A stretch of DNA of 62,187 nucleotides, taken from NCBI GenBank assembly GCA_036259255.1, contig DATACC010000271.1, forward strand, positions 1-62,187, written 5' to 3'. The translations under genes and the position numbers were made by a program. Shown piece by piece: positions 46,401-54,972 of this stretch. The stretch is from Thermoanaerobaculia bacterium. GTDB lineage: Bacteria; Acidobacteriota; Thermoanaerobaculia; Multivoradales; JBCCEF01. Numbering within the stretch: the first letter of the stretch is position 1; every line of letters starts with the position of its first letter. The notes below the pieces were generated by a model. It saw only the letters and a list, made by a program, of their open reading frames with translations, made no database searches and was not told where the DNA came from.

Positions 46401-47881
46401 GCGGCGTAGGTGGTCTCGGCCCCGTCGAAGAGCAGCGCCGGGGCCGCCGGCGAGCGCACCGCATGCTCCTCGAACAGGCGGTGCACCGGACGCCGTGCCG
46501 GCGCCGTGGGCGCCTCGGTCGCCACCGCCGGCGGAGCGTCCTCCGGCGCCAGCAGGTCGAGCCCCGCGAGGGTGGCGCCACCCCGGGTCGCGCCACCGGG
46601 GGTTGCGGAACCCTGGGTTACGGCGCCCGCCAGCAGGCAGGACAGGGAGCGGCCGAGCTGCTCGACGTCCGCGCCGTCGAGCAGCGACCGGTCGTAGGCG
46701 ATCTCGGCGCTCAGCTCGCCGCCGGCCTCCCGGCAGGAGAGCTTCAGGGTGAAGCGCTCGCCGAGGTCGCGCCAGGCGAGCGGCGTGAGCGTGCAGCCGG
46801 CCAGCCGCCACGGGGCGGCGGCGAGACGGGTGTGCTCGAAGAATGCGGCCGGCTCCGGCTCTCCCTCGCCGCCGGCCACCAGGTAGTGCTGCCACTCGCC
46901 GGCGGCCGCGAGCTGGGCGCCGGTGCGCTCGGCCGCCGCCGCCAAGGTCTCGTCGCGGCGCGGGCGGCACGGCAACGGGAGCCAGCGGGCGTAGGGGCCG
47001 CAGCCGCTCTCCAGCTCGTCGAAACCGCGGCCGTCGAAGCGGCAGGCGACGCACAGCTCCCAGGCGCCGGTATAGCGGGCGAGCAGCGCCTGCCAGGCGG
47101 CGAGCAGCACGGCGGCGAGCCCAGAGCCGGCCACCTCCCCGCCGGCCAAGGAGGGCGGCAGCGCCACCGGCACGATGCCGGCGGCGAAGCCGACGCCCTG
47201 GGCACGGCGGCGGGCGAAGGGCAGGCGCAGCGGCGGCAGCGCCAGCGCCTCGCGGCGCAACGCCTCCACCTTGTCGGCGGCATCGCCCTCGCCGGCCTCC
47301 AGCAGCTCGTTCTGCCACTGAGCAAAGTCGGCGTACTGAAGCGGCACCTCCTCGCGGGCGGCGGCGGTGCCGCGGCAGGCGTCGTCGAGCAGGTTGGCCA
47401 GGGTGCGGGCGTCGCCCGCCAGGCCCGGCAGGGTGAGCACCAGCCGGGGCGCCTCGCCGGCCACCGTCACCAGCAGGGCGCGGACCCGGGGAAGCCGGTC
47501 GGGCGCGAAGGGCTGGCGCCGCTCGTCGTCGGCCAAGCGCTCGGCGGCGGCGGCATCGGGCGCGTCGGCGGTGCGCCACAGCAGCACCTCCTCGCCGCCC
47601 TCCTCCACCACCTGGAGCGGGAAGCGGATGCCGGGCTGCCGGTGGTAGGTGGTGCGGAAGATCTCGTGGCGCCCGATGGCGGCGGCGAGCGCCACCCGCA
47701 GCGCCTCACTCCGGGCCTCGCCCCGAGCCCCGGCCGGCGGCTCGCCGCCGAGCCCATCGACCCGCAGCACCGCCTGGACGCGGCACGGCTCGCCGCCGGG
47801 CTCGTCCTCGTGCTCGAGCAGCCAGAGGACGCGCTGCTGGGGGGAGAGGCGAAAGCCTTCGAGCGTCGTTTCCTGGATCAT
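40469..47881 (-). CDS. NRPS: interface domain-A(Asp)-PCP-Cy-A(Cys) with embedded oxidase-PCP (thiazole-forming)
   Basis: Start MIQETTLEGFRLSPQQ (ATGA overlap). Dead C motif LPGLAGDAR. A1 DLTKVGHVGK. Cy FPLTDVQQAYWVGR, DALIFDAWS, SQVWLD. A2 DLWNMSLIWK (Cys). Nitroreductase-type Ox (RRSHRRF...YASASGLYPVQVY) inside A2. PCPs GGHSL and GGNSV. Confidence 0.93.
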   Translation of the reverse strand: MIQETTLEGFRLSPQQRVLWLLEHEDEPGGEPCRVQAVLRVDGLGGEPPAGARGEARSEALRVALAAAIGRHEIFRTTYHRQPGIRFPLQVVEEGGEEVLLWRTADAPDAAAAERLADDERRQPFAPDRLPRVRALLVTVAGEAPRLVLTLPGLAGDARTLANLLDDACRGTAAAREEVPLQYADFAQWQNELLEAGEGDAADKVEALRREALALPPLRLPFARRRAQGVGFAAGIVPVALPPSLAGGEVAGSGLAAVLLAAWQALLARYTGAWELCVACRFDGRGFDELESGCGPYARWLPLPCRPRRDETLAAAAERTGAQLAAAGEWQHYLVAGGEGEPEPAAFFEHTRLAAAPWRLAGCTLTPLAWRDLGERFTLKLSCREAGGELSAEIAYDRSLLDGADVEQLGRSLSCLLAGAVTQGSATPGGATRGGATLAGLDLLAPEDAPPAVATEAPTAPARRPVHRLFEEHAVRSPAAPALLFDGAETTYAALDAAANRLARHLRRRGAGPGSVVALFLPRTPRLVEALLACLKAGAAYSVLEPTLPPRRLAAMLEELGEAQAATGTRSRPGALVVTLEELAATLPGGEAAAGEAVCLDRDAAAVAGEDAAPLPAPAGGDDLLLASLAYVVFTSGSTGRPKGVAVEHRHLAAYVAGAVERLELPAGGRYATVSTFAADLGHTMVFPALSSGGCLHVVAQERLADAGELAEELGRHPADCLKIVPSHLRALLDAGRDARVLPRLRLVLGGEACDWRLVDRVHELAPGCRVFNHYGPTETTVGVIAGALDDLGRSEDSGERPAAPPLGRALAGARIAVLDEWLRPVPPWVAGELYVGGDTVSRGYLGDPARTAAAFLPDPFAAVPGARMYRTGDRARRRGDGRIDFLGRGDRQVKLHGFRIELDEVRAALECHPRISGSAVTLTRGGEGHELLAAYYVAATEIEPGELRAFLAESLLAETLPNVFVRLDRLPLTPNGKLDHAALPNAEEAMSRSRREPVAPRTATEATLARLWAEVLGRDEPAGVFDHFFEMGGHSLLATQLMARVCDELQVRLPLRVLLEDPTVAGLAEAVARERARLAESLGDEAAVAEVLPPLVVDPERRHQPFPLTDVQQAYWVGRSGAFELGNVSTHAYMEIDSDGLDLARFETALNRMIERHEMLRAVVLPDGTQRILAEVPRYHVDVLDLRGLAPETVEQHLAEQRERLSHLVQTPDRWPLFDFRATRLDGGRVRLHVSRDALIFDAWSAFILFSELFRFYADPEAELPALEVSYRDYVVAEKALEDTELYRRDWQYWLRRLDDLPPAPDLPLAADPATLAEPRFTRRSGVLSTERWMRLQGRAARAGLTPSGLVLAAYADVLALWSRTPRFTLNLTLFHRLPLHPQVQELIGDFTSLTLLEVDPPAGAPFVVRARRLQERLWEDLEHRHVGGVRVMRELARRRRRSGTALMPVVLTSTLALDVSEREVSLQALSAEIVYGLAITSQVWLDHSASQRPDGGLDFHWNAVEELFPPGMLDAMFATYSALLERLADDDAAWSAAGRPALPEAELAPRRAANATAAPVPQGLLHDGFRRQAAERPREVAVVDSRRRVAYGELHRLARLLGDRLRERGARPDRLVAVCMEKGWEQVAAVLAVLESGAAYLPVDPALPRERRFQLLARGEAELVLTQPWLADTLEWPDGVEVTTVGDADLGDLDAAAEPPPPVQRPEDLAYVLFTSGSTGEPKGVMIDHRGALNTVADVNQRFAVGPGDRVLALSSLGFDLSVWDVFGVLAAGGTVVMPESVAARDPGRWAELVEEHRVTLWNTVPALLEMLVEHAAGRRSMPRLDSLRLAMLSGDWIPLSLPGRFRSLVPRARVVSLGGATEASIWSILHPVDEVDPEWPSIPYGKAMVNQSFHVLDADLEPRPTWVPGDLYIGGIGLARGYWRDEERTRASFVEHPRTGERLYRTGDVGRFLPDGSIEFLGREDHQVKIQGHRIELGEIEAVLEQHPAVRTAVVTAPGERENRRLVAHVVAQEGAGEPAAAAAPGLPPAGSRIDDPVERMRFKLSQPGRRAELAGDTTGLARPELSAGDAEALYLARRSHRRFLAEPLPAERLGRLLAALTPMHFEGWAMPKYRYASASGLYPVQVYLYVKPARVAGLAGGTYYHDPVEHRLVRLAAGDAFERTLYSAVNRPLFDRAAFAVFLVAQMRAIEPLYGEAAQHLATLEAGLVTQLLETTAAAEGLGLCQVGGLDFDRVRGDLALVDGHVLVHSLLGGAVDAAARLEPDAEAAELATLQALRGEALGDTNLGGTNPGAEAPAGAGQLTATLRDFLAAKLPAYMVPPTFVFLERLPLTANGKLDRAALAAPAAVAPAPAAQPGVAPQGEMESTIAAIWSEVLGVESVGVHDNFFDLGGNSVGMVQVHGRLGAALGREVAITHLFRFPTVAGLAASIAAEPGTDQAVGTARDLADRQREARRRRRGKGRADA
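46571..46615. repeat. 15-bp imperfect tandem repeat x3 (GSATP/GGATR/GGATL)
   Basis: ggtggcgccaccccg / ggtcgcgccaccggg / ggttgcggaaccctg. Confidence 0.75.

Positions 47882-54972: not shown

What the first reader, a model, noticed from the sequence alone, without database searches (positions are those of the whole stretch)
47878..54972. Cluster starts with KS-AT-DH-KR-ACP-C and no loading module: candidate iterative polyene starter
Seen: the first gene begins directly with a Cys-active KS, with no FAAL/CoA ligase/ACP or KSQ upstream, no ER, and an attached C domain. AT motifs QPANF, GHSTG and VPFH are non-canonical. Established: bacterial KS-AT-DH-KR-ACP-C starters of polycyclic tetramate macrolactams, and the myxochromide PKS, work iteratively to make polyenes. 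From memory their ATs have similar VPYH motifs. Inference: the peptide may carry a conjugated polyenoyl chromophore.
Basis: partly seen in the sequence, partly recalled or inferred. Interest (0 to 1): 0.62.

Follow-up and report, generated by a model that had tools for sequence, protein, structure and literature searches.

The report
Loader-less polyketide starter of peptide line
The first gene of a giant peptide/polyketide assembly line in an uncultured, probably acidobacterial, genome encodes a one-module polyketide synthase of the same family as the enzymes that reuse a single module to build the polyene chains of tetramate macrolactams and myxochromides, so it most likely caps the peptide with an unsaturated lipid chain made iteratively.

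Summary
Gene 47878-54972 (-) encodes a 2364-aa KS-AT-DH-KR-ACP-C protein with every catalytic motif intact, no ER, and no FAAL, free ACP or KSQ in the 7.2 kb up to the contig end. It opens the operon behind a 203-nt, 51% GC gap.

- **KS tree:** the KS sits in a clade (UFBoot/SH-aLRT 100/100) made only of loader-less single-module PKSs. The clade holds the Lysobacter/Streptomyces PTM enzymes and a Myxococcus myxochromide-type MchA. It excludes all modular, NRPS-fed and loading-module KSs.
- **AT tree and motifs:** the AT tree gives the same clade.
- **FAAL-primed look-alikes:** proteins of identical architecture that follow FAAL-ACAD-ACP fall outside the clade and have ordinary AT motifs.
- **Syntenic cluster:** a 66%-identical cluster shows no loader in 10 kb upstream or along about 70 kb, down to a TE-ending NRPS.

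Iteration itself, chain length and polyene character remain inferred. The window's 11-12-member subclade has no characterised member. The C domain should pass the chain to Asp, then Cys (thiazole). This is a new variant of a known kind and a good genome-mining lead, but not a surprise.

The parts
47878..54972 (-). First gene of the operon: 2364-aa KS-AT-DH-KR-ACP-C protein (P0001)
   Evidence: the same protein is in the database as P0002
53782..54918 (-). KS domain. Cys193-His328-His368 are intact and only 18 residues precede it (no docking domain, no carrier domain).
   Evidence: clade placement
52330..53274 (-). AT domain with QPANF (53074-53088), GHSTG (52996-53010) and VPFH (52696-52707). 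This is the signature of the loader-less iPKS clade. The F/Y at the third position fits malonyl.
51358..52197 (-). DH domain with intact HxxxGxxxxP, GYxYG-like and DxxxQ motifs
49987..50565 (-). KR domain with NADPH motif and catalytic Tyr. It lacks the LDD Asp (HAAGISQP) and has GGW, so it is A-type by the usual rule.
49489..49674 (-). ACP (GLDSM, Ser1795)
48037..49404 (-). C domain with intact HHIAVDG. It is of the type that follows PKS carrier domains.
54973..55175 (.). Intergenic gap, 50.7% GC in a 75% GC contig. It lies between the PKS start and a divergently transcribed gene and is the presumed promoter region of the operon.
   Evidence: no sigma-70 consensus site
46487..47881 (-). N-terminal degenerate C-like ('interface'-type) domain of gene 2. 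HHxxxDG is replaced by PGLAGDA. The gene starts at ATG 47881, overlapping the PKS stop (ATGA).
40469..46486 (-). [not shown]
   Evidence: codes read by hand from motifs

Best explanation
P0001 is the self-priming, iteratively acting starter synthase of the assembly line. Steps 1, 2 and 4 below are inferred from homology; step 3 is shown only as domain presence.

1. The AT loads malonyl units onto the single ACP.
2. The Cys-active KS primes itself, most likely with acetyl formed by decarboxylating malonyl-ACP. It then performs several rounds of condensation.
3. KR and DH act in each round. No ER is present, so the ACP carries a conjugated enoyl/polyenoyl thioester.
4. The fused C domain transfers this chain to the amino group of Asp (possibly beta-hydroxy-Asp). 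That Asp is held on the first T domain of the next protein, whose N-terminus is a degenerate C-like interface domain.
5. Cy, A(Cys) and Ox then make a thiazole, and the long NRPS/PKS line continues.

In function it works like MchA in myxochromide biosynthesis. In sequence it belongs to the same family as PTM synthases. Its architecture lies between the two: the C domain is fused, but there is no A-T-TE.
For: - **Architecture and motifs:** intact throughout, with no ER.
- **KS tree:** in the careful tree of 100-102 KS domains, all loader-less single-module KSs form one clade (UFBoot 100 / SH-aLRT 100, branch about 0.19) with no modular KS inside. The clade contains the window KS, L. enzymogenes and Streptomyces/Saccharopolyspora PTM-type enzymes, and a Myxococcus MchA-type PKS. 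The MchA-type assignment rests on KS-AT-DH-[ER-sized insert]-KR-ACP followed by C-A-MT-T.
- **Published function:** PTM and Mch enzymes are described as iterative polyene makers (PMC11724479, PMC6180311).
- **AT:** the AT tree gives the same clade with SH-aLRT 100. The clade-wide motif is QPANF / GHS[TA]GE / VP[YF]HS, against QPALF / GHSVGE / HAFHS or GHSQGE / YASHS in modular ATs.
- **Other KSs in the window:** both sit in a separate long-branch clade of KSs that follow NRPS modules. P0001 is therefore not peptide-fed.
- **FAAL-primed look-alikes:** proteins of identical architecture that follow FAAL-ACAD-ACP (P0093, L013) lie outside the clade with ordinary ATs.
- **Relatives in genomes:** none of 80 related genome loci has a FAAL within the fetched upstream flank (up to 10 kb).
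- **Closest relatives:** 62% identical stand-alone KS-AT-DH-KR-ACP proteins beside NRPSs. The N-terminal C domain of those NRPSs groups with P0001's fused C.
- **Syntenic cluster:** no loader from 10 kb upstream to the TE.
Against: - No experiment or transcript data exist for this MAG.
- The window's own subclade (11-12 members, support 99-100/97-98) holds no characterised enzyme. Both known iterative families sit in the sister half of the clade.
- Clade membership could reflect 'self-priming starter KS' rather than iteration. The nearest outgroups are loading-module KSs.
- A single round would give only crotonyl.
- The window's cluster is truncated. The MAG holds three FAAL genes at other contig ends that cannot be assigned.
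- Chain length and double-bond geometry cannot be predicted. The KR motif differs from that of PTM KRs.
Confidence: 0.62

Rival explanations
1. Ordinary one-round starter module. The KS is loaded directly with a fatty or short acyl group and extends it once. The group would come from acyl-CoA, from FAS acyl-ACP, or from a FAAL-ACP encoded elsewhere. The result is a 2-enoyl lipid tail handed to the C domain.
For: - Proteins with the same KS-AT-DH-KR-ACP-C order at 44-49% identity are directly preceded by FAAL, acyl-CoA dehydrogenase and ACP.
- The MAG has three FAAL genes at contig ends, one fused to an ACP.
- The cluster is cut at position 1 and continues into contig C194.
- The best solved-structure hit is mycocerosic acid synthase, which is primed by acyl-CoA without a loader (the priming is my own knowledge).
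Against: - The FAAL-primed look-alikes fall outside the 100/100 clade in both KS and AT trees and lack the AT signature.
- All three FAAL genes of the MAG run off their contigs in frame, so they look fused to other lines.
- The syntenic cluster has no FAAL or free ACP over about 80 kb.
- None of 80 relatives has an upstream FAAL.
- Mycocerosic acid synthase is itself iterative.
Confidence: 0.25
2. P0001 is not the first module. It acts mid-line on a chain delivered from a protein encoded on an unseen contig.
For: The window is a truncated contig of an incomplete MAG, and gene order need not follow the order of synthesis.
Against: - The gene opens the operon behind a 51% GC gap with a divergent neighbour.
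- Only 18 residues precede the KS.
- The KS is not in the clade of NRPS-fed KSs that holds the window's other two KSs.
- The syntenic cluster runs colinearly from this gene to a TE.
Confidence: 0.05
3. Aromatic (6-methylsalicylate/naphthoate-type) iterative PKS that supplies an aryl cap, as in micacocidin-like thiazoline siderophores.
For: KS-AT-DH-KR-ACP is also the domain order of bacterial aromatic iterative PKSs (my own knowledge). The next modules make a thiazole, and the line carries siderophore-like hydroxylases.
Against: - The characterised members of the KS/AT clade make linear polyenes (PMC11724479, PMC6180311).
- Identity to PTM and MchA-type KS-AT is 52-56%.
- No aromatic iPKS appeared among the best hits.
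- No aromatic reference sequences were available for the tree, so this exclusion is indirect.
Confidence: 0.03

Closest known systems
Polycyclic tetramate macrolactam (PTM/PoTeM) iPKS/NRPS: IkaA, FtdB and the HSAF synthase of Lysobacter enzymogenes
   Same: - Same KS-AT-DH-KR-ACP-C order, starting directly with a Cys KS, with no loader and no ER.
- KS and AT lie in the same strongly supported clade.
- AT signature QPANF/GHSTGE/VP[Y/F]HS.
- The C domain is of the same type.
- Identity is 52% over KS-AT to the L. enzymogenes enzyme.
   Different: - No A(Orn)-T-TE on the same protein.
- The chain goes to Asp on a separate multimodular NRPS/PKS.
- The KS is in the sister subclade, not the PTM subclade.
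- The KR reads SQP where PTM KRs read VRD.
- No PTM tailoring genes appear among the neighbours scanned.
MchA, the iterative PKS of myxochromide lipopeptide biosynthesis (Myxococcus, Stigmatella)
   Same: - Loader-less single PKS module that makes the polyunsaturated acyl cap of a nonribosomal lipopeptide (PMC6180311).
- An MchA-type enzyme (L098) falls in the same KS and AT clades.
- It carries GHSAGE/VPYHS.
   Different: - MchA has an ER-sized insert and is a separate protein. The C domain is on MchB.
- Here the C is fused to the PKS and is followed by an extra degenerate C-like domain.
- The MchA-type KS sits on a long branch in the other half of the clade.
FAAL-ACAD-ACP-primed KS-AT-DH-KR-ACP-C lipopeptide starters (metagenomic P0093, P0118/L013)
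   Same: Identical domain order in the PKS-C protein, at 44-49% identity. P0118/L013 carries a TauD on the same protein and is followed by further NRPS genes.
   Different: - They are directly preceded by FAAL, acyl-CoA dehydrogenase and ACP.
- Their KS and AT lie outside the loader-less clade.
- Their AT motifs are ordinary: GQSLGE/VASHS and GHSVGE/FAFHS.
Uncharacterised stand-alone KS-AT-DH-KR-ACP proteins next to NRPSs (metagenomic L011/L012; Myxococcus dinghuensis L018; L099)
   Same: - These are the closest relatives: 62-64% identity, 71% in the KS for L099.
- Same AT motifs, QPAN/SF / GHSTGE / DVPFHSH.
- Same SxP KR motif.
- No loader.
   Different: The C domain is on the neighbouring NRPS instead of fused. 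Their clusters differ, for example by a PLP enzyme and ornithine cyclodeaminase/OTCase genes.

Membership tests
Loader-less monomodular iterative-type PKS clade (the class NaPDoS2 labels 'iterative PTM', PMC10308959) | KS groups with PTM/monomodular KSs and apart from modular cis-AT, hybrid and loading-module KSs | tested here: met
   Clade support is 100/100 and no modular KS is inside. NaPDoS2 itself was not run.
Loader-less monomodular iterative-type PKS clade (the class NaPDoS2 labels 'iterative PTM', PMC10308959) | AT of the same lineage (QPANF / GHS[TA]GE / VP[YF]HS) | tested here: met
   Motif table; AT clade SH-aLRT 100
Loader-less monomodular iterative-type PKS clade (the class NaPDoS2 labels 'iterative PTM', PMC10308959) | No loading module, FAAL or free ACP serving the KS | tested here: met
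   Met within the visible DNA and across the syntenic cluster. The far end of the window's own cluster is missing.
Loader-less monomodular iterative-type PKS clade (the class NaPDoS2 labels 'iterative PTM', PMC10308959) | One module performs several elongation rounds | not testable with these tools
   Needs enzyme assay or product structure
PTM (PoTeM) synthase | Single protein KS-AT-DH-KR-ACP-C-A-T-TE (PMC10308959) | tested here: not met
   The protein ends after C. The next gene is I-A-T-Cy-A(Ox)-T.
PTM (PoTeM) synthase | A domain loads ornithine, which is acylated twice | tested here: not met
   The first A code is DLTKVGHVGK, Asp-type, read by hand
PTM (PoTeM) synthase | KS inside the PTM subclade | tested here: not met
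   The window KS is in the sister subclade of 11-12 rows
Myxochromide-type iPKS + NRPS lipopeptide system | KS-first single PKS module with no loader that supplies the N-acyl cap of an NRPS peptide | tested here: met
Myxochromide-type iPKS + NRPS lipopeptide system | MchA architecture KS-AT-DH-ER-KR-CP as a separate protein (PMC6180311) | tested here: not met
   No ER-sized insert is present and the C domain is fused. Compare L098.
FAAL-primed lipopeptide starter module | FAAL (with or without acyl-CoA dehydrogenase) and ACP encoded directly before the KS | tested here: not met
   The nearby acyl-CoA dehydrogenase is a housekeeping type, 75-85% identical to hundreds of metagenome proteins.
KSQ / decarboxylating loading module | Active-site Cys replaced by Gln | tested here: not met
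   DTACSS has Cys193

The most novel reading that the evidence does not exclude
An uncultured Thermoanaerobaculia-type acidobacterium makes a siderophore-like peptide whose N-terminus is a chromophoric polyenoyl-(beta-hydroxy)Asp-thiazole unit.
- The unit would be built by an iterative PKS of an uncharacterised subclade.
- That subclade's A-type KR may give cis double bonds.
- The AT may also serve in trans the next PKS module, whose own AT is truncated.
Probability: 0.2. Interest if true: 0.65.

Novelty: new variant of a known kind. Interest (0 to 1): 0.45.

Why it matters
It is hard to tell from sequence whether a bacterial type I PKS module works iteratively. Here KS phylogeny, AT phylogeny, a three-part AT motif and absence of a loader all agree. 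Together they separate this protein from FAAL-primed proteins of identical domain order.

If the prediction holds, a whole uncharacterised branch of iPKS-C and stand-alone iPKS enzymes would be marked as makers of polyenoyl-capped peptides. That branch occurs in Acidobacteriota, Chloroflexota, Myxococcota and Bacillota. The AT motif QPANF / GHS[TA]GE / VP[YF]HS would then be a cheap mining flag.

It would also point to one of the first natural products assignable to Thermoanaerobaculia.

Tried and rejected
- **Promoter scan:** the sigma-70 scan of the upstream gap found nothing. This is uninformative for this phylum.
- **NCBIfam:** only generic PKS models matched, below their cut-offs.
- **Solved-structure search:** no iterative/modular discrimination. 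Mycocerosic acid synthase and DEBS modules both score highly.
- **Nearby acyl-CoA dehydrogenase (59800-61000):** considered as a lipo-initiation enzyme and rejected. It is a highly conserved housekeeping gene next to MeaB.
- **Contig C192 (TauD plus FAAL):** tested as a continuation of the cluster and rejected. Its open end encodes an HD-domain membrane protein. The true neighbour is C194, with a 141-nt exact overlap, after which the trail is lost.
- **Last gene of that contig:** too long for a look-up, so its final ~7.8 kb remain unseen.
- **Literature searches:** found no characterised enzyme nearer than the PTM and Mch synthases.
- **Earlier notes from other genomes:** none were relevant.
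Full report
**Setting.** The window is 75% GC and is the whole of contig C271 of a 4.07-Mb, 364-contig, about 80%-complete MAG. Codon-position GC picks out a run of very large minus-strand genes from 54972 down to position 1.

A housekeeping acyl-CoA dehydrogenase in the window is 83-84% identical to proteins named from Thermoanaerobaculia/Acidobacteriota MAGs. Many NRPS relatives carry the same label. The host is therefore probably an acidobacterium of that class.

**Observation.**
- ORF 47878-54972 (-) gives a 2364-aa protein.
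- Pfam domains are KS 19-397, AT 567-881, DH 926-1205, KR 1470-1662, ACP 1767-1828 and C 1857-2312.
- All catalytic motifs are present: DTACSS/HGTGT/NIGH, GHSTGE, HRIQGAVLYP with DAAFQ, GGLGGLG with YAAGN, GLDSM, and HHIAVDG.
- The DH-KR spacer is 265 residues with no ER hit.
- Only 18 residues precede the KS.

Upstream lies a 203-nt gap of 50.7% GC. Beyond it are a divergent hypothetical gene, an M12 metalloprotease, MeaB and the acyl-CoA dehydrogenase. A PP-binding scan of the genome finds no carrier domain in 55,000-62,187.

**What follows the gene.** Gene 2 starts at ATG 47881, overlapping the PKS stop.
- Its first ~465 residues are a C-like domain with HHxxxDG degraded to PGLAGDA. Three paralogues in the window each sit directly before an Asp or His A domain. 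This is the 'interface' type noted by earlier agents.
- The P0001 C domain should therefore acylate Asp, and a thiazole follows.

The rest of the line holds two more PKS modules, fused and free TauD hydroxylases, a B12-radical SAM gene and several NRPS modules. It runs off the contig. A 141-nt exact overlap links it to contig C194 (T-C), where the trail ends.

**Relatives.** A protein search gave the following hits.

| Hit | Identity to P0001 | Architecture |
|---|---|---|
| P0003 | 66%, full length | KS-AT-DH-KR-ACP-C |
| P0021, P0024, P0069, P0079, P0119 | 54-62% | stand-alone KS-AT-DH-KR-ACP |
| P0093 | 49% | KS-AT-DH-KR-ACP-C |
| P0118 | 44% | KS-AT-DH-KR-ACP-C plus NRPS domains |
| Myxobacterial modular PKSs | about 40% | multimodular |

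Their contexts differ.
- P0003 lies in a syntenic cluster whose upstream 10 kb is unrelated.
- P0021 and P0024 are stand-alone PKSs beside NRPSs, with no FAAL.
- P0093 and P0118 are directly preceded by FAAL, acyl-CoA dehydrogenase and ACP.

The same domain order therefore occurs both with and without a loader, and architecture alone does not decide.

A scan of species genomes returned 80 loci. They comprise:
- 53 PTM-like KS-AT-DH-KR-ACP-C-A loci, including Lysobacter enzymogenes, Saccharopolyspora spinosa, and many Streptomyces and Kitasatospora;
- 16 PKS-C loci feeding multimodular NRPSs (Paenibacillus, Lihuaxuella, Chloroflexota, Acidobacteriota, Sorangium, Myxococcus);
- 11 stand-alone loci.

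tblastn with FAAL, ACAD and ACP queries found no FAAL upstream of any of them.

**Phylogeny.**
- *Quick KS tree (138 domains) and careful trees (100-102 domains).* All loader-less single-module KSs form one clade with UFBoot 100 / SH-aLRT 100, branch about 0.19, and no modular KS inside.
- *Window subclade.* The window KS sits in a subclade of 11-12 rows (99-100/97-98). Its companions are the syntenic L009, the stand-alone L011/L012/P0069/P0079/P0119, and Myxococcus, Sorangium and Herpetosiphonaceae loci.
- *Sister half.* The PTM enzymes lie in the other half of the clade.
- *MchA-type reference.* I located this enzyme in an unnamed Myxococcus-group genome (L098). It is a 2155-aa KS-AT-DH-[ER-sized insert]-KR-ACP protein followed by C-A-MT-T-C-A. 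That matches the published mch layout (PMC6180311). Its KS also falls inside the clade.
- *Outgroups.* The FAAL-primed L013 and P0093, and the N-terminal KSs of loading-type KS-AT-AT proteins, fall just outside. The window's other two KSs belong to a distant long-branch clade of KSs that follow NRPS modules.
- *AT tree.* It reproduces the clade (SH-aLRT 100), with L013's AT among modular ATs.

**AT motifs.**

| Group | Motifs |
|---|---|
| Whole loader-less clade | QPANF / GHS[T/A]GE / VP[Y/F]HS |
| PTM-like | QPANF / GHSTGE / VPYHS |
| MchA-like | GHSAGE / VPYHS |
| Window, L009; L011/L012 read QPASF | QPANF / GHSTGE / DVPFHSH |
| Modular ATs | QPALF / GHSVGE / HAFHS, or GHSQGE / YASHS |

The motifs are thus 'non-canonical' only relative to modular ATs.

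**C domain.** In the C-domain tree P0001's C groups (SH-aLRT 95) with the C domains that follow PKS carrier domains. It also groups with the N-terminal C of the NRPSs next to the stand-alone PKSs L011/L012. This fits a hand-over of a polyketide acyl chain in all of these systems.

**Loader elsewhere?**
- The MAG has three FAAL genes. All run off contig ends in frame, and one is followed by an ACP. They look like fused loaders of other lines.
- I walked the syntenic record in six look-ups and one protein search.
- The gene order found was: PKS-C; I-A-T-Cy-A(Ox)-T; KS..C-TauD; C-A-T-C-TauD; rSAM; I-A-T; C-A-T-C; TauD; I-A-MT-T-C; I-A-T; KS-AT-KR-ACP; and a 5737-aa NRPS ending in a TE.
- No FAAL or free carrier protein was called anywhere along this stretch.
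- The last ~7.8 kb of that contig could not be reached.

**Interpretation.** What is shown:
- the architecture;
- intact active sites;
- the operon-first position;
- absence of a loader in the visible and syntenic DNA;
- membership of KS, AT and C in the lineage that contains the PTM and myxochromide iterative synthases.

What is inferred: self-priming, several rounds per chain, a conjugated polyenoyl product, and transfer to Asp.

All loader-less KS-first bacterial type I PKSs I know of are iterative (own knowledge). This raises the prior, but the window's subclade is uncharacterised and a single round cannot be excluded.

The KR lacks the LDD Asp and has the Trp of A-type KRs, unlike PTM KRs, which read VRD. 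Double-bond geometry may therefore differ. I put the iterative polyenoyl-starter reading at about 0.62. A one-round or externally primed module gets 0.25, and other readings are below 0.1.

**Novelty.** This is not a PTM synthase, because it has no A-T-TE, the amino acid is Asp rather than Orn, and it lies in a different subclade. It is not an MchA orthologue, because it has no ER insert and the C is fused. It is a variant of a known principle, sitting in a broad, uncharacterised branch seen in several phyla. It is a sound genome-mining lead rather than a surprise.

Noticed in passing
window 50164-50265 (KR of P0001): The KR reads HAAGISQP where B-type KRs have LDD, and carries GGW. It is therefore A-type by the usual rule. 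The same S-x-P motif marks the nearest relatives (L009, L011/L012, several PKS-C loci), whereas PTM KRs read VRD. Cis double bonds are possible.
   Followed up: partly
window 46487-47881, 25110-26318, 15990-17183, 10189-11478: Four paralogous degenerate C-like ('interface'-type) domains, each directly before an Asp or His A domain. There are three TauD copies: fused at 33808-34773 and 28065-29012, and free at 17258-18184. That makes four interface domains for one free hydroxylase.
   Followed up: partly
window 1-141 and contig C194 of the same MAG: The left end of the window overlaps the reverse complement of contig C194 by 141 nt at 100%, a k=141 assembly edge. The assembly line therefore continues with T-C for about 2.2 kb before the trail is lost.
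   Followed up: yes
MAG contigs C192 (11891-12226), C243 (45-716), C239 (46-393): Three FAAL-type genes all run off contig ends. C243 is FAAL-ACP. C192 also has a TauD at 7285-8193. The MAG therefore holds at least one other, FAAL-primed, hydroxylase-bearing lipopeptide line.
   Followed up: partly
window 38500-40476 (gene 3): The AT of the second PKS module matches only profile positions 1-114 of 319, so it looks truncated. The only full ATs in the window are those of P0001 and of the module at 3203-7981. One of them may load this module in trans.
   Followed up: no
L011 and L012 (metagenome contigs): The closest stand-alone relatives sit between a Crp-type regulator plus a PLP enzyme and a MacB-type permease plus OTCase or ornithine cyclodeaminase. 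They are divergent from a 3255-aa NRPS. This looks like a diaminopropionate-type precursor set.
   Followed up: no
L019 (Pelosinus baikalensis) 10001-17895: A PTM-like PKS-NRPS has an extra AT-like stretch directly upstream of its KS (AT-KS-AT-DH-KR-ACP-C-A).
   Followed up: no
L018/L097 (Myxococcus dinghuensis) and L099: Myxococcus-group genomes carry a stand-alone 1895-1922-aa PKS with 64-71% identity in KS-AT to the window. It is followed by an NRPS gene. In L018 that gene starts with two C domains in tandem, the same C plus C-like arrangement as here but split differently.
   Followed up: partly
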